From: Escherichia coli
GTDB taxonomy: Bacteria; Pseudomonadota; Gammaproteobacteria; Enterobacterales; Enterobacteriaceae
DNA: 64,000 nt
Reading direction: 5' to 3' (one strand)
Assembly: GCF_044324875.1 (NCBI RefSeq)
Contig: NZ_CP172185.1
Positions 1 through 56,717 of the stretch are shown here, piece after piece. Position 1 is the first letter of the stretch. Each line of letters opens with the position of its first letter. The translations under genes and the position numbers were made by a program. The notes under the pieces are model-generated. The model was not told where the DNA came from. It saw nothing but the letters and a program-made list of their open reading frames with translations, and did no database searches.

Positions 1-8
1 AATCAAAA

Positions 9-35
9 AGCCCGCAGCAATGTGCGGGCGTTAGT
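9..35 (-). terminator. intrinsic terminator downstream of uspF
   Basis: Inverted repeat gcccgcagcaatgtgcgggc followed by a T-run on the minus strand, immediately 3' of the uspF stop. Confidence 0.5.
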
Positions 36-36
36 G

Positions 37-552
<516 letters not shown>

Positions 553-611
553 TTAGATCAAAGGAGGGAGAATAAGCAGAAAAAGCCCGCCATAACAGCG
601 GGCAGGAGGAT

Positions 612-1730: not shown

Positions 1731-1958
1731 TGAATAAATCCTTTAGTTATTTTATTTGCCTTTTCATCCCCATTTTGGGGAGTGAAAGCATCCTAAAGGA
1801 GAAGTTCAGTTAGCCGATAAATATCATTTGTTACGCCTTAAGTAAAACCTTAATCAAATAATTCTTCTGAAATGATAATAAGTCTGGTGAATGTATTGAA
1901 GATAATACATACAAAATAAAAATTATACTTTTAATTTGCTATACGTTATTCTGCGCGG

Positions 1959-2067
1959 GTTATATGCCTTTATTGTCACAGATTTTATTTTCTGTTGGGC
2001 CATTGCGTTGCTACTGATTTTCCAACATATAAAAAGACAAGCCCGAACAGTCGTCCGGGCTTTTTTT
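1959..2067 (+). ncRNA. micC: MicC small regulatory RNA (ompC-targeting, Hfq-dependent)
   Basis: Sequence gttatatgcctttattgtcacagattttattttctgttgggccattgc...caagcccgaacagtcgtccgggcttttttt matches the MicC sequence as I remember it, ending in a hairpin plus T-run; lies in the ompN-ydbK intergenic region as in K-12. Confidence 0.85.
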
Positions 2068-2096
2068 TAGAATTGGATAATTCTTATCCAGAGCAT

Positions 2097-5000: not shown

Positions 5001-5621
5001 CTCCGGATTCAGCGCGCGGGCGCGATGAGCATCAATTTCGGCCTGCGGCATCAGTTCAAGAATCGTGTCATCGGCCAGCGGGACAATTTTATTGATCTCG
5101 TGGGACGTGCGGAAACCATCAAAGAAATGAATAAATGGCACGCGACTCTTCAGCGTCGCGATGTGCGAAATAAGAGCAAAGTCTTGCGCTTCCTGGACGT
5201 TTGCTGCACACAACATCGCGCAACCCGTCTGGCGCACCGCCATAACGTCGGAATGATCGCCAAAAATAGAGAGTGCATGTGTGGCAACGGTACGTGCCGC
5301 TACATGCAGGACAAATGGCGTCAGTTCGCCTGCCAGTTTGTACAGCGTCGGGATCATCAGCAGCAAACCCTGCGATGACGTAAACGATGTTGAAAGGGCA
5401 CCCGTCTGCAAAGCGCCATGCACGGTAGCGATAGCACCCGCTTCCGACTGCATTTCAACCACGCGTGGTGTGTCTCCCCAAACGTTCTTCAAGCCGTTTC
5501 CGGCCCAGGCATCAGCCTGTTCTGCCATCGTGGAACTGGGGGTAATAGGGTAGATGGCGATAACTTCACTGGTGCGAAACGCCACCGAAGCAACCGCGCC
5601 ATTACCGTCAATAGTAATCAT
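2097..5621 (-). CDS. ydbK: pyruvate:flavodoxin/ferredoxin oxidoreductase (PFOR, NifJ-like)
   Basis: 1174-aa ORF; N-terminal MITIDGNGAVASVAFR; 4Fe-4S ferredoxin motifs CTQCNHCVAACP and CTGCNLCVEVCP; thiamine-diphosphate-domain motif GGDGW. Confidence 0.9.
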   Translation of the reverse strand: MITIDGNGAVASVAFRTSEVIAIYPITPSSTMAEQADAWAGNGLKNVWGDTPRVVEMQSEAGAIATVHGALQTGALSTSFTSSQGLLLMIPTLYKLAGELTPFVLHVAARTVATHALSIFGDHSDVMAVRQTGCAMLCAANVQEAQDFALISHIATLKSRVPFIHFFDGFRTSHEINKIVPLADDTILELMPQAEIDAHRARALNPEHPVIRGTSANPDTYFQSREATNPWYNAVYDHVEQAMNDFAAATGRQYQPFEYYGHPQAERVIILMGSAIGTCEEVVDELLTRGEKVGVLKVRLYRPFSAKHLLQALPGSVRSVAVLDRTKEPGAQAEPLYLDVMTALAEAFNNGERETLPRVIGGRYGLSSKEFGPDCVLAVFAELNAAKPKARFTVGIYDDVTNLSLPLPENTLPNSAKLEALFYGLGSDGSVSATKNNIKIIGNSTPWYAQGYFVYDSKKAGGLTVSHLRVSEQPIRSAYLISQADFVGCHQLQFIDKYQMAERLKPGGIFLLNTPYSADEVWSRLPQEVQAVLNQKKARFYVINAAKIARECGLAARINTVMQMAFFHLTQILPGDSALAELQGAIAKSYSSKGQDLVERNWQALALARESVEEVPLQPVNPHSANRPPVVSDAAPDFVKTVTAAMLAGLGDALPVSALPPDGTWPMGTTRWEKRNIAEEIPIWKEELCTQCNHCVAACPHSAIRAKVVPPEAMENAPASLHSLDVKSRDMRGQKYVLQVAPEDCTGCNLCVEVCPAKDRQNPEIKAINMMSRLEHVEEEKINYDFFLNLPEIDRSKLERIDIRTSQLITPLFEYSGACSGCGETPYIKLLTQLYGDRMLIANATGCSSIYGGNLPSTPYTTDANGRGPAWANSLFEDNAEFGLGFRLTVDQHRVRVLRLLDQFADKIPAELLTALKSDATPEVRREQVAALRQQLNDVAEAHELLRDADALVEKSIWLIGGDGWAYDIGFGGLDHVLSLTENVNILVLDTQCYSNTGGQASKATPLGAVTKFGEHGKRKARKDLGVSMMMYGHVYVAQISLGAQLNQTVKAIQEAEAYPGPSLIIAYSPCEEHGYDLALSHDQMRQLTATGFWPLYRFDPRRADEGKLPLALDSRPPSEALEETLLHEQRFRRLNSQQPEVAEQLWKDAAADLQKRYDFLAQMAGKAEKSNTD

Positions 5622-5894
5622 ATGACACCCTTACATTGCGCAAATGAGGGGCGCACGAAATTGCTGCGCGCCCAGTAGTTATCTTTCAATTTTAGCAAAT
5701 GGCTTTCTTCTGCATTTTCGCTTTTGTGTCCCCCACATCAGCGTAATGAATGTTTTGATCAAACAGAGGGCAAAAAAATAGCCATAAAAAAGTAAAAATG
5801 CGGGGCAACGCGCAGGACAGCTCTCGACGCCGCCCTCTGTGCTGCCTATTATTTATGGCGGTGTCGTTTGGCTTGAAGATCAGAGGAAGAAAAG

Positions 5895-6161
5895 ATGCGA
5901 GCAGCGTTTTGGGTAGGGTGTGCCGCTTTATTATTGTCGGCGTGTAGTAGTGAACCTGTTCAGCAGGCGACTGCGGCGCACGTAGCGCCAGGTTTAAAAG
6001 CGTCGATGTCCAGTAGTGGAGAAGCAAATTGTGCAATGATCGGCGGTTCGCTTTCTGTTGCCCGTCAACTGGATGGTACGGCGATTGGGATGTGTGCATT
6101 ACCCAACGGCAAACGCTGTAGCGAACAGTCACTTGCCGCCGGGAGCTGTGGCAGCTATTAA
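5895..6161 (+). CDS. ydbJ: small lipoprotein (DUF333 family)
   Basis: 88-aa ORF with lipoprotein-type signal (LLLSAC); conserved position between ydbK and hslJ. Confidence 0.75.
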   Translation: MRAAFWVGCAALLLSACSSEPVQQATAAHVAPGLKASMSSSGEANCAMIGGSLSVARQLDGTAIGMCALPNGKRCSEQSLAAGSCGSY

Positions 6162-6580
6162 TTCATTAAATCCGCCAGCTTATAAGTTAATGTCTGTTTC
6201 GCGGTCGCCAGCGTTAACTGGTTCGCGGTCAGATCCACTTGTGCACCTTCTTTCAGCATTTCGCTAATGGTGTTATCGAGTTCATTAAGCTGCGGGTTAG
6301 CGCACATCATACGGGTCATTGCCAGCCCTTTGGCTGTCAGTTCACCATTAGACAGTTTGCCTTCACCGCTAAAGCGGTTACACATGCTGCCGGAAATCAT
6401 CATCTTTTCACCAAAGCTGATTTCTGGCGGATTTTTATCGCTGGTCACGGGCTTACCGTTTACGCTTTCCAGCACAAAGCGATGATGCTGTAGCTGTTCT
6501 GGGGTTACAGCAATTTTGTCATTACTTACACATCCCGCCATCAGCAGGCTTAGCGCAACGAGCGCGGCTACTTTCTTCAT
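6158..6580 (-). CDS. hslJ: heat-shock lipoprotein HslJ (META domain)
   Basis: ORF 6158..6592(-); likely start at MKKVAALVALSLLMAGC (lipobox); conserved position next to ldhA. Confidence 0.8.
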   Translation of the reverse strand: MKKVAALVALSLLMAGCVSNDKIAVTPEQLQHHRFVLESVNGKPVTSDKNPPEISFGEKMMISGSMCNRFSGEGKLSNGELTAKGLAMTRMMCANPQLNELDNTISEMLKEGAQVDLTANQLTLATAKQTLTYKLADLMN

Positions 6581-6690: not shown

Positions 6691-7680
6691 TTAAACCAGT
6701 TCGTTCGGGCAGGTTTCGCCTTTTTCCAGATTGCTTAAGTTTTGCAGCGTAGTCTGAGAAATACTGGTCAGTGCTTCTGCTGTCAGGAATGCCTGGTGCC
6801 CGGTAAACAGCACGTTGTGGCAGGCAGACAGACGACGGAATACGTCATCCTGGATCACGTCGTTGGATTTGTCTTCAAAGAACAGATCGCGTTCGTTCTC
6901 ATACACGTCCATACCCAACGAACCAATTTTCTGATTTTTCAGCGCTTCAATTGCCGCCTGAGAATCAATCAATGCACCGCGACTGGTATTGACGATCATC
7001 ACGCCATTTTTCATCTGATCGAAGGCGGCTTCGTTCAACAGATGGTAGTTTTCCGGTGTCAGCGGGCAGTGCAGAGAGATAACGTCTGATTCAGAGAACA
7101 GGGTTGGCAGATCGACATACTCCACACCGAGTTCCAGTGCCGCCGCACTTGGATACGGATCGAACGCCAGCAGACGCATACCAAAACCTTTCAGAATGCG
7201 CAGCATCGCCACACCGATTTTACCGGTACCGATAACGCCTGCCGTTTTGCCATACATAGTAAAGCCGGTCAGACCTTCCAGAGAGAAGTTGGCGTCACGA
7301 GTACGCTGATACGCGCGATGAATACGGCGGTTCAGCGTCATCATCATACCGATGGCGTGTTCAGCAACGGCTTCTGGATCATAGGCTGGAACACGGACTA
7401 CTTTCAGCCCCAGTTCTTTTGCCGCGTCAAGGTCGACGTTATTGAAACCGGCACAGCGCAGGGCGATATATTTAACGCCGTGCTTTTTCAGCTCTTCCAG
7501 CACCGGGCGGCTGCCGTCATCGTTTACGAAAATACATACCGCTTCGCAGCCATTGGCGGTTTTAGCGGTTTTTTCCGTCAGCAGAAAGTCAAAAAATTCC
7601 AGCTCAAAGCCAAAGGACTCGTTCACCTGTTGCAGGTACTTCTTGTCGTACTGTTTTGTGCTATAAACGGCGAGTTTCAT
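6691..7680 (-). CDS. ldhA: fermentative D-lactate dehydrogenase, NAD-dependent
   Basis: 329-aa ORF MKLAVYSTKQYDKKYLQQVNE...; D-isomer 2-hydroxyacid dehydrogenase family with NAD-binding motif GVIGTGKIG. Confidence 0.9.
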   Translation of the reverse strand: MKLAVYSTKQYDKKYLQQVNESFGFELEFFDFLLTEKTAKTANGCEAVCIFVNDDGSRPVLEELKKHGVKYIALRCAGFNNVDLDAAKELGLKVVRVPAYDPEAVAEHAIGMMMTLNRRIHRAYQRTRDANFSLEGLTGFTMYGKTAGVIGTGKIGVAMLRILKGFGMRLLAFDPYPSAAALELGVEYVDLPTLFSESDVISLHCPLTPENYHLLNEAAFDQMKNGVMIVNTSRGALIDSQAAIEALKNQKIGSLGMDVYENERDLFFEDKSNDVIQDDVFRRLSACHNVLFTGHQAFLTAEALTSISQTTLQNLSNLEKGETCPNELV

Positions 7681-7887
7681 AAGACTTTCTCCAGTGATGT
7701 TGAATCACATTTAAGCTACTAAAAATATTTTACAAAATTTCAAATATAATTGAAAGCTATGGCGATATTGAAAAATTCATCAACAACTATGCTTAGTGTA
7801 GGCGCAACCTTCAACTGAACGGTTAAACATGCCACAATACCCGTATTGAATGCTTAATTTTTCGCTAAATCAGGATATTAACTACCC

Positions 7888-10527
7888 ATGCTGGGTAAAT
7901 ATAAAGCCGTTCTCGCGCTGTTATTACTGATTATTCTTGTGCCGTTGACGCTGCTGATGACGCTCGGCCTGTGGGTTCCCACGCTGGCGGGCATCTGGCT
8001 ACCGCTCGGGACACGTATTGCATTAGATGAAAGCCCACGCATTACGCGTAAAGGTTTAATCATCCCCGATCTCCGTTATCTGGTGGGAGATTGTCAGCTT
8101 GCGCATATCACCAACGCCAGCCTTTCACATCCCAGCCGCTGGTTATTGAACGTCGGCACGGTAGAACTTGATTCTGCTTGTCTGGCGAAATTGCCGCAGA
8201 CGGAGCAATCGCCTGCCGCTCCAAAAACCCTCGCGCAGTGGCAGGCCATGTTGCCTAACACCTGGATCAATATCGATAAACTGATTTTTTCTCCCTGGCA
8301 GGAGTGGCAGGGAAAACTCTCTCTCGCGTTAACCTCTGATATCCAGCAACTGCGTTATCAGGGCGAAAAAGTTAAATTTCAAGGCCAGCTGAAAGGGCAA
8401 CAACTTACAGTCAGCGAACTGGATGTCGTCGCGTTTGAAAATCAGCCGCCGGTTAAACTGGTGGGGGAATTTACTATGCCGCTCGTGCCGGATGGACTTC
8501 CTGTAAGTGGTCATGCTACTGCGACGTTAAACTTGCCGCAGGAGCCTTCACTGGTGGATGCCGAGCTGGACTGGCAGGAAAATAGCGGGCAATTGATTGT
8601 GCTGGCACGGGATAACGGCGATCCGTTGCTCGATTTGCCGTGGCAAATTACTCGCCAACAATTGACCGTAAGCGATGGTCGCTGGAGCTGGCCGTATGCA
8701 GGTTTTCCTTTGAGTGGCCGACTGGGTGTTAAAGTCGACAACTGGCAGGCAGGGCTTGAGAACGCTCTGGTCAGCGGACGACTGAGTGTGCTGACCCAGG
8801 GGCAAGCGGGTAAGGGCAACGCGGTGCTTAATTTTGGCCCTGGAAAATTAAGCATGGATAACAGCCAGCTGCCTTTGCAGCTGACCGGTGAAGCGAAACA
8901 GGCGGATCTCATTTTATATGCCCGCTTACCTGCGCAGCTAAGCGGAAGTCTGACTGACCCAACGTTGGCCTTTGAGCCAGGTGCGTTATTACGTTCGAAG
9001 GGAAGAGTCATCGATTCGCTGGACATCGATGAAATCCGCTGGCCTTTAGCGGGTGTAAAAGTCACCCAACGTGGTGTTGACGGACGTTTGCAGGCCATTT
9101 TGCAGGCGCATGAAAATGAACTGGGCGATTTCGTGCTGCATATGGATGGACTGGCGAATGATTTTCTCCCTGACGCTGGCCGCTGGCAGTGGCGCTACTG
9201 GGGAAAAGGCAGTTTTACACCGATGAATGCCACCTGGGATGTCGCAGGAAAGGGTGAGTGGCATGACAGCACGATTACGCTGACCGATCTCTCCACCGGT
9301 TTCGACCAGTTACAATACGGTACGATGACGGTAGAAAAGCCGCGACTAATTCTCGATAAGCCCGTCGTCTGGGTACGTGACGCACAGCATCCCTCCTTTA
9401 GCGGCGCGCTGTCACTGGACGCCGGGCAAACGCTGTTTACTGGCGGCAGTGTGTTACCGCCATCAACCTTAAAATTTAGCGTCGATGGACGCGATCCGAC
9501 GTATTTCCTCTTTAAAGGCGATTTACATGCTGGTGAGATTGGCCCGGTTCGGGTAAATGGTCGCTGGGACGGTATTCGTCTGCGCGGTAACGCCTGGTGG
9601 CCTAAACAATCACTGACTGTATTCCAGCCGCTGGTGCCACCCGACTGGAAGATGAACTTACGCGATGGTGAACTGTATGCTCAGGTTGCATTTTCTGCTG
9701 CGCCTGAACAAGGATTCCGCGCGGGAGGGCACGGCGTGTTGAAAGGCGGTAGTGCCTGGATGCCAGATAATCAGGTTAACGGTGTCGATTTTGTCCTGCC
9801 TTTCCGTTTTGCTGATGGAGCCTGGCATCTGGGGACTCGCGGCCCCGTTACGTTGCGAATTGCCGAAGTGATTAATCTGGTGACAGCGAAAAATATTACG
9901 GCTGATTTGCAAGGGCGCTATCCGTGGACTGAAGAAGAACCATTGCTGTTGACTGATGTTAGCGTCGATGTGTTAGGCGGTAACGTGCTGATGAAACAAT
10001 TACGTATGCCGCAACATGACCCGGCGCTGTTGCGGCTGAATAATCTCTCATCCAGCGAACTGGTTAGCGCCGTCAATCCGAAACAATTCGCCATGTCCGG
10101 GGCATTTAGTGGTGCATTGCCGTTATGGCTAAACAACGAAAAATGGATAGTGAAGGATGGTTGGCTGGCAAATAGCGGGCCAATGACCTTGCGACTGGAT
10201 AAAGACACCGCAGATGCGGTAGTGAAAGACAATATGACCGCGGGTTCAGCAATTAACTGGTTGCGCTATATGGAAATTAGCCGTTCATCGACAAAAATTA
10301 ACTTAGATAATCTCGGTTTATTAACCATGCAGGCCAACATTACAGGTACCAGTCGCGTTGATGGTAAAAGCGGTACGGTAAACCTTAATTACCATCATGA
10401 AGAGAATATTTTTACGCTGTGGCGCAGTTTACGCTTTGGCGATAATCTCCAGGCATGGTTGGAGCAGAACGCACGTCTGCCGGGAAATGACTGTCCGCAA
10501 GGAAAAGAGTGTGAGGAAAAACAATGA
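7888..10527 (+). CDS. ydbH: AsmA-like large inner-membrane-anchored protein
   Basis: 879-aa ORF with N-terminal transmembrane segment; first gene of a ydbH-ynbE-ydbL arrangement in which the stop overlaps the ynbE start. Confidence 0.85.
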   Translation: MLGKYKAVLALLLLIILVPLTLLMTLGLWVPTLAGIWLPLGTRIALDESPRITRKGLIIPDLRYLVGDCQLAHITNASLSHPSRWLLNVGTVELDSACLAKLPQTEQSPAAPKTLAQWQAMLPNTWINIDKLIFSPWQEWQGKLSLALTSDIQQLRYQGEKVKFQGQLKGQQLTVSELDVVAFENQPPVKLVGEFTMPLVPDGLPVSGHATATLNLPQEPSLVDAELDWQENSGQLIVLARDNGDPLLDLPWQITRQQLTVSDGRWSWPYAGFPLSGRLGVKVDNWQAGLENALVSGRLSVLTQGQAGKGNAVLNFGPGKLSMDNSQLPLQLTGEAKQADLILYARLPAQLSGSLTDPTLAFEPGALLRSKGRVIDSLDIDEIRWPLAGVKVTQRGVDGRLQAILQAHENELGDFVLHMDGLANDFLPDAGRWQWRYWGKGSFTPMNATWDVAGKGEWHDSTITLTDLSTGFDQLQYGTMTVEKPRLILDKPVVWVRDAQHPSFSGALSLDAGQTLFTGGSVLPPSTLKFSVDGRDPTYFLFKGDLHAGEIGPVRVNGRWDGIRLRGNAWWPKQSLTVFQPLVPPDWKMNLRDGELYAQVAFSAAPEQGFRAGGHGVLKGGSAWMPDNQVNGVDFVLPFRFADGAWHLGTRGPVTLRIAEVINLVTAKNITADLQGRYPWTEEEPLLLTDVSVDVLGGNVLMKQLRMPQHDPALLRLNNLSSSELVSAVNPKQFAMSGAFSGALPLWLNNEKWIVKDGWLANSGPMTLRLDKDTADAVVKDNMTAGSAINWLRYMEISRSSTKINLDNLGLLTMQANITGTSRVDGKSGTVNLNYHHEENIFTLWRSLRFGDNLQAWLEQNARLPGNDCPQGKECEEKQ

Positions 10528-10709
10528 AAATTTTACTGGCTGCGTTGACGTCATCTTTTATGCTGGTTGGCTGTACGCCTCGCATTGAAGTCGCTGCACC
10601 TAAGGAACCGATCACTATCAATATGAACGTTAAAATTGAGCATGAGATCATCATCAAGGCAGACAAAGATGTCGAAGAGCTGCTTGAGACTCGTAGCGAT
10701 CTTTTCTGA
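10524..10709 (+). CDS. ynbE: small lipoprotein YnbE
   Basis: 61-aa ORF MKILLAALTSSFMLVGC (lipobox); start overlaps the ydbH stop. Confidence 0.8.
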   Translation: MKILLAALTSSFMLVGCTPRIEVAAPKEPITINMNVKIEHEIIIKADKDVEELLETRSDLF

Positions 10710-10713
10710 GGCG

Positions 10714-11040
10714 ATGATGAAGAGAAATTTAATGCTGTGTTTTGTCATTAATGCCTTATTTAGCACCAGTGCGATGGCTCTGACGCTGAATGACGCTCGA
10801 ACTCAGGGGCGTGTTGGCGAAACGTATAATGGTTATCTGGTTGCATTAAAGGCGGATACCGAAACACAGATGTTAGTCAAAAGGATTAATGAATCGCGTA
10901 ATAAGAGCTATCAACAACTCGCCATGAAAAATAATCTGCCGGTTGCGGAAGTGGAAAAATTGGCGGGGCAAAAACTGGTAGCAAAAGCTAAGCCTGGAGA
11001 ATACATTCGCGGGATAAACGGGATGTGGTTGCAAAAATAA
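10714..11040 (+). CDS. ydbL: periplasmic protein YdbL (DUF1318)
   Basis: Reading frame of ORF 10636..11040; start placed at ATGATG (10714), 4 bp after the ynbE stop, giving 108 aa with signal peptide MMKRNLMLCFVINALFSTSAMA. Confidence 0.8.
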   Translation: MMKRNLMLCFVINALFSTSAMALTLNDARTQGRVGETYNGYLVALKADTETQMLVKRINESRNKSYQQLAMKNNLPVAEVEKLAGQKLVAKAKPGEYIRGINGMWLQK

Positions 11041-47390: not shown

Positions 47391-47930
47391 ATGACTGAAA
47401 CGATAAAAGTAAGCGAATCACTTGAATTACATGCTGTTGCAGAAAATCACGTCACACCTCTTTATCAGTTAATCTGTAAAAATAAAACCTGGTTACAGCA
47501 GTCGCTAAACTGGCCGCAGTTTGTTCAAATTGAAGAGGACACACGAAAAACGGTGCAGGGCAATGTAATGTTGCATCAACGCGGCTATGCCAAAATGTTC
47601 ATGATTTTCAAAGAAGATGAACTTATCGGCGTTATCTCGTTTAATCGTATTGAACCACTGAATAAAACCGCTGAAATCGGCTACTGGCTGGACGAATCTC
47701 ATCAGGGGGAGGGGATCATTTCTCAGGCGCTGCAGGCATTGATTCATCATTATGCTCAGTCTGGTGAACTTAGACGCTTCGTGATCAAATGTCGGGTGGA
47801 CAATGCGCAAAGCAACCAGGTCGCTTTGCGCAATGGTTTTATCCTTGAAGGTTGCCTGAAACAGGCTGAGTTTCTGAATGATGCCTATGATGATGTGAAC
47901 TTATACGCGCGTATTATCGATTCACAATAA
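47391..47930 (+). CDS. rimL: ribosomal-protein L7/L12 serine N-acetyltransferase
   Basis: Start [16 protein letters not shown] within ORF 47376..47930 (179 aa); GNAT acetyltransferase fold. Confidence 0.85.
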
Positions 47931-48902
47931 CCCTGCCAGCGGCGTTCGCGTAATGCGCTCTTCGCCGTTAATGACTTTTGGACCACGGACATGAACCGTG
48001 TCGCCATCAAAGGCTTCAACGACGGCGTGGTCGGTTAACTCCACATGGTTTTCAATTATCACCGCACCTGTAATACGGCTCTCACCTTGTATTACAACGT
48101 GCTCGTCGAGCAGAATCGGTCCGCCACGTACCACGGCATTTCCGCCAATCAAGACATGATGTTTTAACACACAATTACCTTCCACAATGGCATATTCCGC
48201 TACCTGCGAACTGTAATGAATTGTCGGAATGGCATCTTCTTCTATGCCAGCTTTCACCTGCGCGTGACCGTAGACTTTAGCACAATCGCATAGCCAGACG
48301 TTGTTCTCTTCATTACCTTCAACGCTGGCAAAATCAAAAACTTCGGCGCGATGTTCAATAAAAGCATACCGGACGACGGCATCGCCATAAATTTGTGCCT
48401 GGTGAACAATACGCGAGGCGCTAACCCTTGCGCGATCATAAATTTGTAGCAGGAGTTGATGGTCGGAGGTTAAGCCTTGCGCGGCGACGATCATAGAATG
48501 TTGATCAATTAAGGCGTGACCAAATATTCTACATTGACCGCAAACTAATGCGTCACGAATGGTGACGCTGTCACTTATATGTGCACCCTGACTGATTTCA
48601 CTATTATCGATCCAGACGTTATCCGTTGCGTAAACCTCTCCCCAAAGGACGCTGGTGCCGGTGATACGCGTATTACCGGAAATCACCGTTCCGCCGAACG
48701 CAATAGCATTCTGATCGTAAATCCAGCAATTTCCTTCCTGCGCTAACACCGTTTCGCGATCGATCCAGCCGCCAGCGGTTCCTGCTATCACATCGTTAAA
48801 ATCGCTCATGGCGATAATTTGCCGTAATAACACACTTTTTTTAGTGCCATCATCCTGATAACTAAAGGCTCGCTGTTCTTCACTTAGACGATATTTGCGC
48901 AT
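47922..48902 (-). CDS. ydcK: hexapeptide-repeat (left-handed beta-helix) protein YdcK
   Basis: 326-aa ORF with repeated hexapeptide-like pattern; conserved position between rimL and tehA. Confidence 0.8.
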
Positions 48903-49025
48903 AGCGTTTTCCCACAGGTGACTTACTATAACCGTAGCAAATTCTGCGGCTCTGGCTATGCTCGAGAAAATTCCATAAAATGCATTTCAAATATACTTTA
49001 TAAATTAAACAAAATGAGTAAGAAG

Positions 49026-50018
49026 ATGCAGAGCGATAAAGTGCTCAATTTGCCGGCAGGCTACTTTGGTATTGTGTTGGGGACGATAGGGATGGGATTT
49101 GCCTGGCGCTATGCCAGCCAGGTTTGGCAGGTCAGCCACTGGTTAGGGGATGGGCTAGTGATTCTGGCGATGATCATCTGGGGATTATTGACTAGCGCAT
49201 TTATTACCCGACTCATACGCTTTCCGCATAGCGTGCTGGCGGAAGTGCGTCATCCAGTGATGAGCAGTTTTGTGAGTTTGTTTCCGGCAACGACGATGCT
49301 GGTGGCGATTGGTTTTGTTCCGTGGTTTCGCCCACTGGCGGTGTGCCTGTTCAGTTTTGGCGTCGTGGTGCAACTGGCTTATGCCGCCTGGCAAACTGCG
49401 GGATTATGGCGCGGATCTCATCCTGAAGAAGCTACCACGCCTGGACTGTATCTGCCGACAGTTGCCAACAACTTTATCAGCGCAATGGCCTGTGGTGCAT
49501 TGGGCTACACCGACGCTGGTCTGGTGTTTTTAGGCGCAGGCGTTTTCTCATGGTTAAGCCTGGAACCGGTGATCTTGCAGCGTCTGCGCAGTTCGGGAGA
49601 ATTACCCACGGCGCTGCGGACATCACTCGGCATTCAGCTCGCTCCTGCGCTGGTGGCCTGTAGTGCCTGGCTGAGCGTCAACGGCGGCGAGGGTGACACG
49701 CTGGCGAAAATGCTTTTCGGTTATGGGCTGCTGCAACTGCTGTTTATGCTACGTCTGATGCCATGGTATCTCTCCCAGCCATTTAATGCTTCATTCTGGA
49801 GTTTCTCGTTCGGCGTATCTGCACTGGCAACCACCGGTTTGCATCTGGGGAGTGGCAGCGATAATGGATTTTTCCATACGCTGGCGGTGCCGCTGTTTAT
49901 CTTTACCAATTTTATAATTGCAATACTGCTCATCCGTACTTTCGCGCTTCTGATGCAGGGGAAATTGTTAATCAGAACCGAGCGCGCCGTTTTAATGAAA
50001 GCTGAGGACAAAGAATGA
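49026..50018 (+). CDS. tehA: tellurite resistance / C4-dicarboxylate-transporter-family membrane protein TehA
   Basis: Start [19 protein letters not shown] within ORF 48918..50018 (330 aa); polytopic membrane protein. Confidence 0.85.
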
Positions 50019-50618
50019 TCATTCGTGACGAAAACTATTTTACTGATAAGTATGAATTAACCCGCACACACTCTGAAGTACTGGAAGCGGTGAAAGTGGT
50101 TAAACCCGGTAAAACGCTGGATCTGGGCTGTGGCAATGGTCGTAATAGTCTTTACCTGGCAGCCAATGGTTATGAAGTTGACGCATGGGATAAAAATGCC
50201 ATGAGTATCGCCAACGTCGAGCGTATTAAATCCATTGAAAATCTGGATAATTTACACACCCGGGTCGTTGATCTGAATAACCTTACGTTTGATGGGCAAT
50301 ACGATTTTATTCTTTCGACTGTGGTGCTGATGTTCCTTGAGGCTAAAACCATCCCAGGGCTGATTGCCAATATGCAACGTTGCACTAAACCTGGCGGTTA
50401 CAACCTGATTGTGGCGGCGATGGATACCGCTGATTATCCATGTACCGTCGTGTACCGTCGGCTTCCCGTTTGCCTTCAAAGAGGGAGAATTACGTCGATA
50501 TTACGAAGGCTGGGAGATGGTGAAATACAATGAAGACGTCGGCGAGCTGCACCGCACCGACGCCAACGGTAATCGTATTAAACTGCGTTTCGCCACGATG
50601 CTGGCACGTAAAAAATAA
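50015..50618 (+). pseudogene. tehB: tellurite methyltransferase TehB, frameshifted by a 10-bp tandem duplication
   Basis: Frame 1 (50015..50533) encodes the N-terminal SAM-methyltransferase part; frame 2 (50409..50618) encodes the C-terminal [19 protein letters not shown]...ATMLARKK; tgtaccgtcg is directly repeated at 50441..50450 and 50451..50460; total length minus 10 bp equals 198 codons. Confidence 0.85.
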
Positions 50619-50920
50619 CCTGGTAAGAACAAGGCGCGTGAAAATTCCCCACGCTGAGATGGTCTACTGTTCTTCTTTTCGGTAAGCATAATTTTTATCG
50701 AATGGATGTGAAATTAATCACAGTAGTCGAAGTTTTTTAGCAGCTTAACTTACTGAAATTTAACTACTGATGATTGACTTAGCCCCTTTTTCGGCATTGA
50801 CTATGTCGTCTGAAAAGGGGCTGAAAAATTTATTTTCACCAACACTTTTTTTGCCACAACACGAAGCGGCGCTTTTTGCTATAACTTAGAAAGTAATATA
50901 ATCATCTCAGGAAACTATTC

Positions 50921-51589
50921 ATGCGTACCACATCAATTGCGAAAGTTGCAGCTTTATGCGGCTTGTTGGCTCTGTCTGGTTGTGCCTCTAAAATCACCCA
51001 GCCAGATAAATATTCTGGTTTTTTAAACAATTACTCTGATTTAAAAGAAACAACCTCAGCAACAGGTAAACCTGTTTTACGTTGGGTAGACCCGAGTTTT
51101 GATCAAAGCAAATATGACAGCATCGTCTGGAACCCAGTCACTTATTATCCGGTACCGAAACCATCTACCCAGGTAGGGCAGAAAGTTCTGGATAAAATTT
51201 TGAGTTATACCAACACCGAAATGAAAGAAGCGATTGCGCAGCGTAAACCACTGGTTACCACCGCTGGGCCGCGTAGTCTGATTTTCCGTGGGGCCATTAC
51301 CGGTGTTGATACCAGCAAAGAAGGGCTGCAATTCTATGAAGTGGTTCCTGTCGCATTAGTGGTCGCGGGGACGCAAATGGCGACGGGCCACCGTACCATG
51401 GATACTCGCCTGTATTTTGAAGGTGAGCTGATTGATGCAGCTACTAATAAACCGGTTATCAAAGTCGTTCGTCAGGGCGAAGGTAAAGACCTGAATAACG
51501 AAAGTACGCCAATGGCTTTCGAAAATATTAAACAAGTTATTGATGACATGGCGACCGATGCCACCATGTTTGACGTTAACAAAAAGTAA
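50921..51589 (+). CDS. ydcL: lipoprotein YdcL (DUF3313)
   Basis: 222-aa ORF with lipobox LALSGCAS. Confidence 0.85.
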   Translation: MRTTSIAKVAALCGLLALSGCASKITQPDKYSGFLNNYSDLKETTSATGKPVLRWVDPSFDQSKYDSIVWNPVTYYPVPKPSTQVGQKVLDKILSYTNTEMKEAIAQRKPLVTTAGPRSLIFRGAITGVDTSKEGLQFYEVVPVALVVAGTQMATGHRTMDTRLYFEGELIDAATNKPVIKVVRQGEGKDLNNESTPMAFENIKQVIDDMATDATMFDVNKK

Positions 51590-51622
51590 TTCCAGCCGCG
51601 CCATCGTAAGATGCGCTTTTTA

Positions 51623-52795
51623 TTATCGGTTTCTGTGAGCGATTAAATTCAACACCACGTAACAAACGCCTCCGGCAATTAATCCCCAGAACGCAGAACC
51701 AATCCCGACCAGCGTCAATCCACTTGCCGTTACCAGAAATGCCACCACCGCCGCGTCGCGCTCACGCTCATTATGCAGCGCCTGATACAAACTGCCGCCA
51801 ATGGTACTCAACAGCGCCAGACCTGCCAGCATCTGGATCCAACTTACGGGCAGGGCAGCCATCATCCCGGTAATGGCACTACCAAAAAGACCTGCGAGCA
51901 AATAAAAAATGCCTGCAACGGCAGCTGCCAGCCAACGTTGATCTTTATCCGGATGCGCTTCCGGGCTTTGACAAATAGCCGCGGTGAGTGCCGCAATACC
52001 GACGGAATAAACGCCGAAAGGGGAAAAAACAAGCGCCAGCAATCCAGTAAACACAATCAACGGCGAAACAGGAGCCGAATACCCGGCTGCTTTCATTGCT
52101 GCGATACCTGGAGCGTTTTGCGATGCCATCGTCACCAGAAAAAGGGGGAGTGCAACGCTCAGACTGTGAGCAAACGAAAAATCAGGGGTAATATAAGTGG
52201 GGAGAACGGGTTTAAAGACAACATCATTTGTGACAACGTCACCTTGCGCCATAACGATCACGATCCCAATAATCATCGCGGCAATTACCGCATAGCGCGG
52301 CGCAACGGCCCTGGTTGCCAGCCATACCAGCAACATACTGCCACACAACGTAAATTGACCATCCAGACTGGCAAACGCCTGTAAACCAAAGCGTAATAAA
52401 ATCCCGGCAAGCATTGCTGCCGCAAGCGAGTGCGGAATAATGCGCATCAGACGAGCAAAGAGTCCCGTTATGCCGCAGAGGACTATTAACGCGTTGGTGA
52501 CAATAAAAACGCCGATGGCTTCGTTAAGTGTTAGTCCCTGTAATCCGGTGACCAACAAAGCCGCGCCAGGCGTTGACCATGCGGTGAGAACAGGTACGCG
52601 ATACCATAATGTCAGAGTCAGCGTACTGACGCCCATTGCCAGCCCCAGCGCCGTCATCCAGCCAGAGATTTGTGCAGTGGTGGCTCCGGCGACAATCGCT
52701 GCTTGCCAGATTATTGCCGCTGAACTGGCGTAGCCAATTAATACCGCCAGAAACCCCGCCAGTAGCGTGGGTGGAGGAATAGAAAACAGACGCAT
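51623..52795 (-). CDS. ydcO: BenE-family (benzoate-transporter-like) membrane protein
   Basis: Frame of ORF 51623..53056(-); probable start MRLFSIPPPTLLAGFLAVLIGYASS at 52795 (about 390 aa); polytopic membrane protein. Confidence 0.8.
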   Translation of the reverse strand: MRLFSIPPPTLLAGFLAVLIGYASSAAIIWQAAIVAGATTAQISGWMTALGLAMGVSTLTLTLWYRVPVLTAWSTPGAALLVTGLQGLTLNEAIGVFIVTNALIVLCGITGLFARLMRIIPHSLAAAMLAGILLRFGLQAFASLDGQFTLCGSMLLVWLATRAVAPRYAVIAAMIIGIVIVMAQGDVVTNDVVFKPVLPTYITPDFSFAHSLSVALPLFLVTMASQNAPGIAAMKAAGYSAPVSPLIVFTGLLALVFSPFGVYSVGIAALTAAICQSPEAHPDKDQRWLAAAVAGIFYLLAGLFGSAITGMMAALPVSWIQMLAGLALLSTIGGSLYQALHNERERDAAVVAFLVTASGLTLVGIGSAFWGLIAGGVCYVVLNLIAHRNR

Positions 52796-52886
52796 AGTCA
52801 CCTCGTGCGTTATAGCGTACAGGTACCGTAGCATTTGTCCGTTATAACGCACAAGTGATAAACTTCCGTTTTGCCGGAGGAGTCGC

Positions 52887-53423
52887 ATGGAAAATCTCGC
52901 TCGCTTTTTATCCACCACACTTAAACAACTACGCCAGCAGCGCGGCTGGAGTCTTTCGCGACTGGCCGAAGCGACAGGCGTTTCTAAAGCGATGTTAGGG
53001 CAGATTGAGCGTAATGAGTCCAGCCCGACGGTCGCGACATTATGGAAAATTGCCACCGGGTTGAATGTGCCATTTTCGACATTTATTTCTCCGCCGCAGT
53101 CCGCTACGCCTTCAGTTTATGATCCGCAACAGCAGGCGATGGTGATCACTTCGCTGTTTCCTTATGATCCACAACTCTGCTTTGAACACTTCTCGATTCA
53201 GATGGCACCTGGTGCAATAAGTGAATCGACGCCCCATGAGAAGGGAGTAATCGAACATGTTGTCGTCATTGATGGGCAACTTGATCTGTGCGTTGATGGT
53301 GAATGGCAGAGCCTTAATTGTGGAGAAGGCGCTCGATTTGCTGCAGACGTTACGCATGTCTATCGTAATGGTGGGGAGCAAATCGTACATTTTCATTCCC
53401 TCATCCATTACCCACGCAGTTAA
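52887..53423 (+). CDS. ydcN: XRE-family HTH regulator with C-terminal cupin domain
   Basis: 178-aa ORF; HTH region RQQRGWSLSRLAEATGVSKAMLGQIERNESSPT; divergent from ydcO. Confidence 0.85.
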   Translation: MENLARFLSTTLKQLRQQRGWSLSRLAEATGVSKAMLGQIERNESSPTVATLWKIATGLNVPFSTFISPPQSATPSVYDPQQQAMVITSLFPYDPQLCFEHFSIQMAPGAISESTPHEKGVIEHVVVIDGQLDLCVDGEWQSLNCGEGARFAADVTHVYRNGGEQIVHFHSLIHYPRS

Positions 53424-53495
53424 GCGGGAAAACTATTTCGCAACGTCGCGCTTGTGGCTAAAATAGCCGCCATTTTTCAGCTACTGGATAAGAAT

Positions 53496-55457
53496 GTGAC
53501 CGTATCTTCTCATCGACTTGAACTGTTAAGCCCGGCACGCGATGCCGCCATTGCCCGCGAAGCTATTTTGCACGGTGCCGATGCTGTTTATATCGGCGGC
53601 CCTGGTTTTGGTGCCCGTCATAATGCCAGTAATAGCCTGAAAGATATTGCCGAACTGGTGCCGTTTGCCCATCGTTATGGTGCAAAAATTTTCGTCACGC
53701 TTAACACCATTTTGCATGATGATGAGCTGGAACCTGCGCAACGGCTGATTACCGACCTCTACCAGACCGGCGTCGATGCGCTGATTGTTCAGGATATGGG
53801 GATTCTGGAACTTGATATTCCGCCGATTGAACTGCACGCCAGTACGCAGTGCGATATTCGCACAGTAGAAAAAGCGAAGTTCCTCTCTGATGTTGGCTTT
53901 ACGCAGATTGTGCTGGCGCGAGAGCTGAATCTTGAGCAGATCCGCGCGATTCACCAGGCCACGGACGCGACCATTGAATTCTTTATTCATGGTGCATTGT
54001 GCGTGGCCTATTCTGGTCAGTGCTACATTTCTCATGCGCAAACAGGGCGTAGCGCCAACCGTGGCGATTGCTCGCAGGCATGCCGTTTGCCATACACATT
54101 GAAAGACGATCAGGGGCGGGTGGTTTCTTATGAAAAACATCTGCTGTCGATGAAAGATAACGATCAGACTGCCAACCTTGGCGCGCTGATTGATGCTGGC
54201 GTGCGCTCCTTCAAGATTGAAGGGCGTTACAAAGATATGAGCTACGTGAAGAATATCACCGCGCATTATCGCCAAATGCTGGATGCCATTATTGAAGAAC
54301 GTGGCGATCTGGCGCGTGCTTCATCAGGTCGTACTGAACATTTCTTTGTTCCATCGACGGAAAAGACTTTCCACCGTGGTAGCACAGATTATTTTGTGAA
54401 TGCCCGTAAAGGGGATATCGGCGCGTTCGATTCGCCGAAATTTATCGGCCTGCCGGTGGGTGAAGTATTGAAAGTGGCGAAAGATCATCTTGATGTTGCC
54501 GTCACCGAGCCACTGGCAAATGGCGATGGCCTGAACGTGATGATTAAACGTGAAGTAGTCGGTTTTCGTGCCAATACGGTAGAAAAAACCGGAGAAAATC
54601 AGTACCGCGTCTGGCCAAATGAGATGCCTGCGGATTTGCATAAAATTCGTCCGCATCATCCGCTTAATCGTAATCTGGACCATAACTGGCAGCAGGCGTT
54701 GACCAAAACATCCAGCGAACGTCGCGTAGCGGTAGACATTGAACTGGGCGGATGGCAGGAACAACTGATTCTGACCCTGACCAGTGAAGAGGGCGTCAGC
54801 GTCACGCATACGCTGGATGGACAATTCGACGAAGCTAATAACGCCGAAAAAGCGCTTAATAACCTGAAAGATGGTCTGGCTAAGCTGGGGCAAACCATCT
54901 ATTACGCCCGCGATGTGCAAATTAACCTGCCTGGTGCGCTGTTTGTACCGAACAGTCTGTTAAATCAGTTCCGCCGTGAGGCCGCCGAAATGCTGGATGC
55001 TGCGCGTCTTGCCAGTTATCAGCGCGGCAGTCGTAAACCGGTTGCTGATCCTGCGCCGGTTTATCCGCAAACGCATCTGAGTTTCCTCGCGAACGTTTAC
55101 AACCAGAAAGCGCGTGAATTTTATCATCGCTATGGTGTGCAGCTGATTGACGCGGCGTATGAGGCACATGAAGAGAAGGGCGAAGTCCCGGTGATGATCA
55201 CCAAGCATTGTCTGCGCTTTGCCTTTAATCTGTGCCCGAAACAGGCGAAAGGCAATATCAAAAGCTGGAAGGCGACGCCAATGCAACTGGTTAATGGCGA
55301 TGAAGTGTTAACGCTGAAATTTGATTGCCGTCCGTGTGAGATGCACGTCATCGGCAAAATTAAAAATCACATTCTGAAAATGCCGTTACCGGGAAGCGTA
55401 GTGGCATCCGTAAGTCCGGATGATCTGCTGAAAACATTGCCGAAGCGAAAAGGGTAA
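53496..55457 (+). CDS. ydcP: peptidase U32-family protein
   Basis: Frame of ORF 53454..55457; start uncertain (GTG at 53496 gives about 653 aa); collagenase-like U32 family features. Confidence 0.8.
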   Translation: MTVSSHRLELLSPARDAAIAREAILHGADAVYIGGPGFGARHNASNSLKDIAELVPFAHRYGAKIFVTLNTILHDDELEPAQRLITDLYQTGVDALIVQDMGILELDIPPIELHASTQCDIRTVEKAKFLSDVGFTQIVLARELNLEQIRAIHQATDATIEFFIHGALCVAYSGQCYISHAQTGRSANRGDCSQACRLPYTLKDDQGRVVSYEKHLLSMKDNDQTANLGALIDAGVRSFKIEGRYKDMSYVKNITAHYRQMLDAIIEERGDLARASSGRTEHFFVPSTEKTFHRGSTDYFVNARKGDIGAFDSPKFIGLPVGEVLKVAKDHLDVAVTEPLANGDGLNVMIKREVVGFRANTVEKTGENQYRVWPNEMPADLHKIRPHHPLNRNLDHNWQQALTKTSSERRVAVDIELGGWQEQLILTLTSEEGVSVTHTLDGQFDEANNAEKALNNLKDGLAKLGQTIYYARDVQINLPGALFVPNSLLNQFRREAAEMLDAARLASYQRGSRKPVADPAPVYPQTHLSFLANVYNQKAREFYHRYGVQLIDAAYEAHEEKGEVPVMITKHCLRFAFNLCPKQAKGNIKSWKATPMQLVNGDEVLTLKFDCRPCEMHVIGKIKNHILKMPLPGSVVASVSPDDLLKTLPKRKG

Positions 55458-55548
55458 AACGCCAGTTTTCTGGTTACTCACAACTTATCAAATCTGCATG
55501 ATATTGTTGGCCGGGTAAGGCGTTACGCCGCATCCGGCAATAAATGAC

Positions 55549-55779
55549 TCAACGTTGTCCCGCTTCTGGTTTGCGCGATTTTTGCCAGTAAAAATGCTCG
55601 CGCAAACCTTCCGCCGACTCTTCCGCCACAGCACGCAATTCATCGCTGTCCGCTTCATGACGCAGTTGATGATCCACATTCTTTACCCACATAAATTCAT
55701 GTCCTTTGTGCCCTGCCATGAGTTGTCCTGAGAACAGCGCACACGTTAATAAGACAACCGATAACGCCTTCGTAAACAT
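55549..55779 (-). CDS. yncJ: small periplasmic protein YncJ (DUF2554)
   Basis: 76-aa ORF with signal peptide MFTKALSVVLLTCALFSGQLMA. Confidence 0.8.
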   Translation of the reverse strand: MFTKALSVVLLTCALFSGQLMAGHKGHEFMWVKNVDHQLRHEADSDELRAVAEESAEGLREHFYWQKSRKPEAGQR

Positions 55780-56000
55780 CCCGCCACCTTTTTCTCACCT
55801 TTTGCCGCTATGATGCCGATCGTTTCTTGAGGTTATTATTCAGTTTTGCAAATTAGCGCAAAGAAATTCTGGAATCTTCCTTCCTGATTTTGCATTGCAT
55901 TCTGCCGTTGCGGCGATTAAGTGCTATTTTCGAGAAAATTACACACGGAGGTAAACAATAATGTTTACTTTGTTGATATACTCAGCGGCAGGGAGGCGAT

Positions 56001-56177
56001 GTGAAACAAAGCGAGTTCAGACGTTGGCTCGAATCTCAGGGCGTCAATGTAGCAAATGGCAGCAACCATTTAAAACTCAGGTTTCACGGGAGGCGCAGTG
56101 TCATGCCGCGTCACCCCAGCGAAGAGATTAAAGAACCATTACGTAAAGCCATTCTGAAACAACTCGGTTTGAGTTAA
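56001..56177 (+). CDS. hicA: type II toxin HicA (mRNA interferase), GTG start
   Basis: Hand-translated 58-codon ORF from GTG at 56001: (M)KQSEFRRWLESQGVNVANGSNHLKLRFHGRRSVMPRHPSEEIKEPLRKAILKQLGLS; adjacent to hicB. Confidence 0.8.
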   Translation: MKQSEFRRWLESQGVNVANGSNHLKLRFHGRRSVMPRHPSEEIKEPLRKAILKQLGLS

Positions 56178-56222
56178 TCGCCAATTAAAAAGGTTAATGA
56201 CATGCGAGAGACAGTCGAAATT

Positions 56223-56639
<417 letters not shown>

Positions 56640-56717
56640 TAACAGTTAATGAAAAGTTGTCATTTTTAACAACTGATATAGACTGCCGAATCACCTGCAC
56701 ATAATAACGATTCGATA

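What the first reader, a model, noticed from the sequence alone, without database searches (positions are those of the whole stretch)
51590..51622. Empty site where K-12 carries an IS609-type element (insQ) between ydcL and ydcO
The ydcL stop and the convergent ydcO stop are only 33 bp apart, with a shared hairpin terminator between them. As I recall, K-12 has an IS609-family transposase gene (insQ) between these two genes, so this would be the uninterrupted ancestral junction.
Basis: partly seen in the sequence, partly recalled or inferred. Interest (0 to 1): 0.25.

Follow-up and report, generated by a model that had tools for sequence, protein, structure and literature searches.

The report
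Vacant IS609 site between ydcL and ydcO
This E. coli strain lacks the 1.7-kb IS609 insertion sequence that K-12 carries between the genes ydcL and ydcO; this is a common, already annotated strain-to-strain difference, and here the site looks never occupied.

Summary
ydcL ends at 51589 and the convergent ydcO stop codon is at 51623-51625, so 33 bp separate them. K-12 MG1655 has an annotated 1748-bp IS609 (yncK, a dead tnpA, plus insQ, a tnpB) exactly there. K-12 flanks align to window 46453-51623 and 51624-56715 with no gap, overlap or duplication.

The insertion point is 51623|51624, just 3' of TTAT and inside the ydcO stop codon. It lies 1 bp outside the reported interval.

Among 5426 complete E. 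coli genomes, 2135 are empty and about 3250 are filled.

"Ancestral" is well supported but not proven:
- More distant Escherichia and E. albertii are empty.
- Sampled filled alleles cluster as a derived group, except that one empty strain, LHM10-1, nests among them.
- All filled genomes carry a different flank haplotype from the window, whose flank matches the outgroups.
- Against this, IS200/IS605 excision leaves no scar, and the closest outgroup has an IS609-like remnant at the same TTAT.

The hairpin is real but weakened by a private 1-bp deletion. Only the ydcL strand has a T-run, so it is not a convincing shared terminator.

Verdict: ordinary and already known.

The parts
50921..51589 (+). 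ydcL, a DUF3313 lipoprotein gene of 222 aa with a TAA stop
   Evidence: ORF. Pfam DUF3313 E 5.7e-63. Annotated as ydcL in relatives.
51590..51622 (.). 33-bp spacer between the ydcL stop and the ydcO stop (34 bp in every other empty allele examined)
51598..51616 (+). Hairpin GCGC(C)ATC-GTAA-GATGCGC, the stem of the ydcL intrinsic terminator; weakened by a private 1-bp G deletion in its 3' arm
   Evidence: -9.1 kcal/mol here against -16.2 in relatives. One search shows the deletion. One search shows no other complete genome shares it.
51617..51626 (+). T-rich tail TTTTTATTAT after the hairpin on the ydcL strand; the opposite strand has no U-run directly after the stem
51620..51623 (+). TTAT, the IS609 target (equivalent to a TnpB TAM). 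In K-12 the IS609 left end starts immediately after it, at 51623|51624
   Evidence: abutting alignments. TTAT precedes the left end at 4 independent IS609 loci, with no target duplication.
51623..52834 (-). ydcO, a BenE-family transporter gene. Its stop codon (51623-51625, TAA) is the codon split by IS609 in K-12
   Evidence: the C-terminus is ...HRNR* here...DRNR* in UTI89 and ...DRNRY* in K-12.
51624..51643 (+). Sequence that flanks the IS609 right end in K-12 (TATCGGTTTCTGTGAGCGAT). Together with TTAT it has the layout of a vacant site or donor joint. It has one mismatch (position 14, G instead of C) to the K-12 right-end flank
   Evidence: Its role as a TnpB target is inferred, not tested.

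Best explanation
The window, from an E. coli close to strain 042 (phylogroup D by my recollection, not tested here), holds the unoccupied ydcL-ydcO junction.

In K-12, and in about 60% of complete E. coli genomes, a 1748-bp IS609 sits at this junction. IS609 is an IS200/IS605-family element; this copy has a dead tnpA (yncK) and an intact tnpB (insQ).

The element went in just 3' of TTAT, at the tail of the ydcL terminator. It made no target duplication. It split the ydcO stop codon, so K-12 YdcO gained one Tyr and a TGA stop supplied by the IS right end.

The window's lineage most likely never carried the element. On that reading the junction is the ancestral state for Escherichia. The element entered once, on a different flank haplotype, in the ancestor of the K-12-like lineages, and was then inherited vertically after its tnpA was inactivated.

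Shown here: the exact vacancy, the TTAT target, the absence of a duplication, the population frequencies, the empty outgroups and the haplotype linkage. Inferred: that the site was never occupied, and that there was a single origin.
For: -: K-12 annotation of IS609, yncK and insQ between ydcL and ydcO.
- K-12 flanks abut at window 51623|51624 with no gap, overlap or duplication. There is no IS609 sequence anywhere in the 64-kb window.
- 2135 of 5426 genomes are empty and 3252 are filled.
- TTAT precedes the left end at four different loci, and the right flanks are unrelated, so there is no target duplication.
- the effect on the ydcO stop codon.
- Escherichia L004, L005 and L006 and E. albertii L007 are empty. 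Two of them have GGAT or TGAT in place of TTAT.
- sampled filled alleles cluster together as a derived group in the right-flank tree (with empty LHM10-1 nested beside CT01), and window plus Ecol_316 branch at the base.
- filled alleles and B2 empty alleles share the 'type-1' flank (TAG stop, GTTA loop). The window has 'type-2' (TAA stop, GTAA loop), like the outgroups.
- none of 3268 filled genomes matches the type-2 flank joined to the IS left end. The best matches are 97.9-98.6%.
- the same nonsense codon at tnpA codon 96 occurs in 4 of the 7 ydcL-ydcO copies examined (the other 3 are frameshifted upstream of it), which suggests early immobilisation.
- no IS609 remnant at this site in any complete E. 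coli genome.
Against: - IS200/IS605 excision restores the original sequence without a scar, so sequence at the site cannot exclude a past occupation.
- The closest outgroup (L003, 94.6% identical to both the window and K-12) carries a 47-bp left-end/right-end remnant of an IS609-like element after the same TTAT, on a type-2 flank. The site was therefore occupied at least twice, or earlier than assumed.
- One empty strain (LHM10-1) nests among filled alleles in the right-flank tree, so recombination or loss does occur at this locus.
- The trees are local (about 6 kb), use about 20 genomes and have no bootstrap support. The left-flank tree is poorly resolved.
Confidence: 0.8

Rival explanations
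1. The site was once occupied in this lineage. TnpA, supplied by this copy or by another IS609 copy, excised the element precisely. That would leave a scarless donor joint identical to a never-occupied site.
For: - Excision in this family is scarless.
- The closest outgroup, L003, has an IS609-like remnant at the same TTAT on the same type-2 flank as the window.
- An intact IS609 tnpA exists in E. coli (strain 115, L099), and a 042-like relative (JSWP006) carries IS609 at another locus.
Against: - None of 3268 filled E. coli genomes has the type-2 flank.
- More distant outgroups are empty.
- The tnpA of the ydcL-ydcO copy carries old shared lesions.
- The scenario needs one early gain plus at least two independent precise losses (D-type and B2-type empty alleles), against two gains.
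- The L003 remnant ends are more diverged from K-12 IS609 (83% and 89% identity) than the flanks are (about 95-96%). This suggests a separate insertion of a different variant.
Confidence: 0.12
2. The empty allele reached this lineage by homologous recombination from an empty-site donor and replaced a filled allele.
For: - LHM10-1 looks like such a recombinant. It has a type-2 left flank, while its right flank clusters with filled alleles.
- Left- and right-flank trees disagree in places.
Against: - The window is 99.6% identical to 042 and its relatives over 3.4 kb, and about 99.8% to Ecol_316 over 8.8 kb spanning the junction.
- It is basal on both flanks, with no mosaic breakpoint visible near the junction.
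Confidence: 0.05
3. The absence is an assembly artefact, that is, a collapsed or omitted repeat.
For: The window has two private indels near the site.
Against: - 2135 complete genomes, including the closest relatives, show the same seamless junction.
- The junction is base-exact.
- One of the private indels is a 10-bp tandem duplication, which is not a typical sequencing error.
Confidence: 0.01

Closest known systems
IS609 of E. coli K-12 MG1655 (NC_000913.3:1503161-1504908; yncK/tnpA pseudogene and insQ/tnpB)
   Same: Same chromosomal position. The window's sequence on either side of 51623|51624 is collinear with the DNA flanking the K-12 element, and the TTAT target is present.
   Different: The window contains none of the element. 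Its flanks belong to a different haplotype, with 3 SNPs in the 70 bp to the left and 1 in the first 20 bp to the right, and it has a private 1-bp deletion.
Vacant sites and 'donor joints' of IS200/IS605 elements (IS608, ISDra2, ISGst), as described by Karvelis et al. 2021 (PMC8612924) and Meers et al. 2023 (bioRxiv 10.1101/2023.03.14.532601)
   Same: The layout is a target motif (TTAT here) directly abutting the sequence that flanks the right end in occupied alleles, with no target-site duplication.
   Different: Nothing shows that this site was ever produced by excision or is ever cleaved by InsQ. Activity of the E. coli InsQ and its guide RNA was not tested. The only RNA evidence is a sub-threshold Rfam HgcC match in K-12 (22 bits against a cut-off of 50).
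Rho-independent terminator between convergent genes
   Same: A GC-rich stem-loop followed by a T-run directly after the ydcL stop. In relatives it is a perfect 8-bp stem at -16.2 kcal/mol, z -4.9.
   Different: In the window the stem is interrupted by a 1-bp deletion (-9.1 kcal/mol). On the ydcO strand the stem is followed by GGCUGGAAUUAC rather than a U-run, so bidirectional use is not supported. The consensus scan did not call it.

Membership tests
Vacant target site of an IS200/IS605-family element (IS609) | Flanks of an occupied allele are exactly collinear with the candidate site, and only the element is missing | tested here: met
   K-12 1-5161 = window 46453-51623 and K-12 6910-12001 = window 51624-56715. 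The 1748 bp in between are absent.
Vacant target site of an IS200/IS605-family element (IS609) | A family-typical short target motif lies immediately 5' of the left end, and there is no target-site duplication | tested here: met
   TTAT precedes the left end at four independent loci (ydcL/ydcO, a DUF3251 gene, gltX/yfeD, TetR/ytfB), and the right flanks are unrelated. The window has TTAT at 51620-51623.
Vacant target site of an IS200/IS605-family element (IS609) | The element is a true IS200/IS605 member, with a Y1 transposase tnpA and a tnpB | tested here: met
   InsQ matches OrfB_IS605, Cas12f1-like_TNB and HTH_OrfB_IS605. RefSeq annotates an intact 'IS609 family transposase' tnpA in strain 115; one search shows it reads through as a 143-aa ORF. 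tnpA itself was not run against Pfam.
Never-occupied (ancestral) state as opposed to an excision product | Outgroups are empty, filled alleles are derived and monophyletic, and no filled allele sits on this haplotype | tested here: inconclusive
   In favour. Against: the L003 remnant, the scarless excision mechanism, and empty LHM10-1 nesting among filled alleles. The trees are local and have no support values.
Target of RNA-guided TnpB (InsQ) cleavage | A TAM followed by about 16-20 nt complementary to the guide of the element's omega RNA, with demonstrated nuclease activity | not testable with these tools
   TTAT plus 19 of 20 matches to the K-12 right-end flank are present. Guide length, TAM and InsQ activity were not determined. 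The Rfam HgcC match is below threshold.
Intrinsic (rho-independent) terminator of ydcL | A GC-rich hairpin directly followed by a U-run on the transcript | tested here: met
   stem at 51598-51616 followed by UUUUUAUUAU, z -2.1 (4 of 200 shuffles fold as well). It is weaker than in relatives (z -4.9). The pattern scan missed it.
Bidirectional terminator shared with ydcO | A U-run after the hairpin on the opposite strand as well | tested here: not met
   on the minus strand the stem is followed by GGCUGGAAUUACUUUUUG. The fold energy is not different from shuffles in the window (z -0.73).

The most novel reading that the evidence does not exclude
The empty/filled polymorphism may be kept in place by InsQ acting as an RNA-guided homing nuclease.

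On this reading, the K-12-type element has a long-dead tnpA but an insQ that is intact in all 7 sampled copies, with pN/pS of about 0.2-0.5. It would cut vacant alleles (TTAT plus TATCGGTTTCTGTCAGCGAT) that it meets after recombination.

The substitutions seen only in empty alleles would then be escape variants. These are position 14 of that 20-mer (G in the window, T in ST131-type strains, C in all filled alleles and in the outgroups) and position 1 (C in LHM10-1).

The window's junction would be a nuclease-resistant vacant site, not merely an untouched one.
Probability: 0.07. Interest if true: 0.5.

Novelty: already known. Interest (0 to 1): 0.08.

Why it matters
It matters little in itself. 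The K-12 IS609 between ydcL and ydcO is annotated in the reference genome, and about 40% of complete E. coli genomes lack it.

The check still yields some modestly useful points:
- It fixes the exact insertion point: after TTAT, inside the ydcO stop codon.
- It shows that K-12 YdcO carries one extra C-terminal residue because of the IS.
- It shows that the filled state is linked to one flank haplotype.
- It provides a clean natural pair of vacant and occupied alleles. These could be used to test whether E. coli InsQ/TnpB cuts its own vacant site.

Tried and rejected
- IS609 elsewhere in the window: blastn with word size 7 gave only chance matches of 25 nt or less.
- Rfam on the window junction: no match at E <= 1.
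- Rfam on the K-12 IS609: only sub-threshold matches, HgcC 22 bits, RAGATH-18 25 bits and sot0042 15 bits. I treat these as a hint of an omega RNA, not as evidence.
- Consensus promoter and terminator scan: it did not call the hairpin, because the bulged stem fails its rule. I folded the hairpin directly instead.
- Literature on IS609/insQ at this locus: 120 papers mention the terms, but those listed were mostly resistome surveys or unrelated uses of 'INSQ', and none of the listed titles concerned this junction. One search failed on syntax.
- An IS609 remnant of the L003 type in complete E. coli genomes: none found.
- An insQ relative between ydcL and ydcO in 80 other Enterobacteriaceae loci: none found. 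The roughly 2-kb gap there is an EamA transporter plus AraC regulator pair, not an IS.
- Assembly artefact: rejected, because 2135 complete genomes share the seamless junction.
- Left-flank tree: poorly resolved, and distorted by partial sequences (CT01 has an IS1 insertion, L003 is a short contig), so I relied mainly on the right-flank tree and on haplotype markers.

Full report
**1. What is in the window**

The region reads tehA, tehB, ydcL (50921-51589, +), then the convergent ydcO (stop codon 51623-51625, -), then sutR and rlhA. The order matches the RefSeq annotation of close relatives. Pfam assigns the two genes to DUF3313 and BenE.

They contain a stem-loop at 51598-51616 followed by TTTTTATTAT.

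**2. The K-12 comparison**

NC_000913.3 annotates a mobile element 'insertion sequence:IS609' at 1503161-1504908. It holds the pseudogene yncK (a tnpA remnant) and insQ ('putative RNA-guided DNA endonuclease'), and it lies between ydcL and ydcO.

Aligning the 12-kb K-12 stretch to the window gives two blocks. K-12 1-5161 equals window 46453-51623 (97.4% identity). K-12 6910-12001 equals window 51624-56715 (96.4%). The 1748 bp between them are missing from the window, and the two blocks abut without gap, overlap or duplicated bases.

- K-12 reads GCGCTTTTTAT | CCGGTGCGCC ... GGATGTCAA | TATCGGTTTCTG.
- The window reads GCGCTTTTTAT TATCGGTTTCTG.

K-12 has 1779 bp there. No IS609 sequence occurs anywhere else in the window.

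**3. Exact anatomy of the site**

The break is at 51623|51624, immediately 3' of TTAT (51620-51623). This is one base beyond the reported interval and inside the ydcO stop codon.
- The window's YdcO ends ...NLIAHRNR* (TAA).
- UTI89, another empty strain, ends ...NLIADRNR*.
- K-12 ends ...NLIADRNRY*, with the Tyr codon straddling the junction and the TGA stop supplied by the IS right end.

Four independent IS609 insertions were examined: ydcL/ydcO, a DUF3251 gene, gltX/yfeD and TetR/ytfB. In all four the left end is preceded by TTTAT and the right flanks are unrelated to one another. That gives a TTAT target and no target-site duplication. This is the known behaviour of IS200/IS605 elements, which insert 3' of a short motif and excise without a scar (Meers et al., bioRxiv 10.1101/2023.03.14.532601; Karvelis et al., PMC8612924, listed).

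**4. How common it is**

Of 5426 complete E. coli genomes:
- 2135 hold the contiguous junction.
- 3252 hold the IS609-filled junction; a left-junction query gave 3268.
- A few dozen hold other arrangements.

The window is closest to strain 042 and its relatives, at 99.6% over 3.4 kb. I recall 042 as phylogroup D. That rests on memory and was not tested here.

**5. Ancestral or not**

For this section I used the YdcL protein to fetch the locus from other species.
- Three Escherichia lineages that are 86-89% identical to E. coli in this region (L004, L005, L006) and E. albertii (L007) have no element. Their junctions read ...CTTCGGAT|TATCGG...CTTCTGAT|TATCGG and ...CTTCTTAT|TATCGG.
- A neighbour-joining tree of about 3.8 kb to the right of the junction from about 20 genomes puts window plus Ecol_316 at the base of E. 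coli. The sampled filled alleles cluster in one derived group.
- The 70 bp left of the junction come in two haplotypes. Type 1 (ydcL stop TAG, loop GTTA) is shared by all sampled filled alleles and by B2-type empty alleles such as UTI89, which is base-for-base K-12 minus the IS. Type 2 (stop TAA, loop GTAA) is found in the window, in 042-like strains and in the outgroups.
- A chimeric query of type-2 flank plus IS609 left end found no full-length match better than 97.9-98.6% among 3268 filled genomes. The insertion is therefore linked to type 1.
- The tnpA of the ydcL-ydcO copy carries the same nonsense codon at position 96 in the four of seven sampled copies that are not frameshifted upstream of it, plus later frameshifts in the other three. 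This fits an old, immobilised, vertically inherited copy.

Together these points favour a single insertion on the type-1 background and a never-occupied site in the window's lineage.

**6. Why 'ancestral' is not proven**
- Excision in this family regenerates the original sequence, so the site itself carries no memory.
- The closest outgroup (L003, Escherichia sp. MOD1-EC7003, 94.6% identical to both K-12 and the window) has a 47-bp sequence after the same TTAT, on a type-2 flank. It matches the IS609 left end (83%) and right end (89%), fused at their shared TCCTTCAG hairpin core. It is followed by a deletion that removes most of ydcO and sutR.
- The site has therefore been hit at least twice, or was occupied earlier than the simple model says. 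The stronger divergence of the remnant compared with its flanks favours a separate insertion.
- No such remnant exists in complete E. coli genomes.
- One empty strain (LHM10-1) groups with filled alleles on the right flank but has a type-2 left flank, which suggests recombination at the locus.
- The trees are local and have no support values.

I put 'never occupied' at about 0.8, scarless excision at about 0.12 and recombinational replacement at about 0.05.

**7. The hairpin**

In relatives the stem is a perfect 8 bp (GCGCCATC/GATGGCGC) with loop GTAA or GTTA, at -16.2 kcal/mol and z -4.9. The window lacks one G in the 3' arm, giving -9.1 kcal/mol and z -2.1.

No complete genome shares that deletion, so the '33 bp' is private to this sequence and the usual spacing is 34 bp.

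The T-run follows the stem only on the ydcL strand. On the ydcO strand the stem is followed by GGCUGGAAUUAC. It is a ydcL terminator. 'Shared' is not supported.

**8. Comparison with what is known, and novelty**

This is the vacant counterpart of an annotated insertion sequence, and a frequent presence/absence polymorphism. It has the layout of an IS200/IS605 vacant site (target motif abutting the right-end flank), but it contains no mobile DNA and is not a member of any element family.

InsQ has the OrfB_IS605 and Cas12f1-like_TNB domains of TnpB nucleases. The 3' end of the K-12 element gives only a sub-threshold match to Rfam HgcC, running 10 nt into the ydcO flank.

By analogy with the TnpB systems tested by Meers et al. 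and Karvelis et al., the window's TTAT plus TATCGGTTTCTGTGAGCGAT would be the natural target of a K-12-type InsQ-guide complex, with one mismatch at position 14. Nothing here shows that this happens.

The finding is already known and of low interest.

Noticed in passing
window 50441-50460: tehB carries a 10-bp tandem duplication (TGTACCGTCG twice). It shifts the frame after residue 145, so the tellurite methyltransferase gene is a pseudogene here. The closest relatives (Ecol_316, 042) lack the duplication.
   Followed up: partly
window 51613|51614: A 1-bp G deletion in the 3' arm of the ydcL terminator hairpin. No complete E. coli genome shares it over the full junction query. The stem energy drops from -16.2 to -9.1 kcal/mol. 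It could be a real private mutation or an assembly error.
   Followed up: partly
L083 (NZ_CP069957.1, FDAARGOS_1279) 4418-5128; window-equivalent 51621|51622: A different IS200/IS605-family element, IS200C (711 bp), sits in the same spacer, 2 bp to the left of the IS609 point and directly after the T-run of the terminator. The tail of this terminator has therefore been hit by two family members.
   Followed up: partly
L003 (Escherichia sp. MOD1-EC7003) 4204-4275: A 47-bp fusion of IS609-like left and right ends lies after the same TTAT. It is followed by a deletion that joins 30 bp of the ydcO 3' end to the 3' end of sutR. No equivalent was found in complete E. coli genomes.
   Followed up: partly
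L009-L082, e.g. L059 (K. pneumoniae ATCC 13883) 4216-6162: In most of the Citrobacter, Enterobacter, Klebsiella, Kluyvera and Raoultella loci fetched, ydcL and ydcO are separated by about 2 kb. In L059 this gap encodes an EamA-family transporter and an AraC-family regulator. The tight ydcL-ydcO junction occurs in Escherichia and in some loci outside it (e.g. Salmonella diarizonae L008, Atlantibacter L062/L065, two Citrobacter L024/L026). Which arrangement is older was not determined.
   Followed up: partly
L001 5219-6866 and L084, L092-L096: In all 7 sampled ydcL-ydcO IS609 copies tnpA is dead: a shared nonsense codon at position 96 in four, and frameshifts in the other three. In contrast, insQ is a full 402-aa ORF in all 7, with pN/pS of about 0.2-0.5 between the more divergent copies. 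This suggests selection on the TnpB gene without its transposase.
   Followed up: partly
window 51637 (position 14 after the junction): This base has three alleles among the empty alleles: C in UTI89 (the same as all filled alleles and the outgroups), G in the window and T in ST131-type strains. It changes YdcO residue -4 between D, H and N. LHM10-1 has C instead of T at position 1 after the junction. Whether this is more than chance was not tested.
   Followed up: no
L001 6803-6919: A sub-threshold Rfam match to HgcC (22 bits, E 0.02) covers the insQ 3' end and the IS609 right end and runs 10 nt into the ydcO flank. sot0042 also matches weakly. This is the place where a TnpB guide RNA would be expected.
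   Followed up: no
L087 (NZ_CP037903.1, LHM10-1): This empty-site strain has a frameshifted ydcO that is about 136 bp shorter, and a TnAs1 transposase truncating ydcK upstream. Its left and right flanks belong to different haplotype groups.
   Followed up: no
L007 (E. albertii NBRC 107761) from about 4227: E. albertii keeps only about 25 bp of the ydcO 3' end after the ydcL terminator and then diverges. ydcO was not found within the locus.
   Followed up: no
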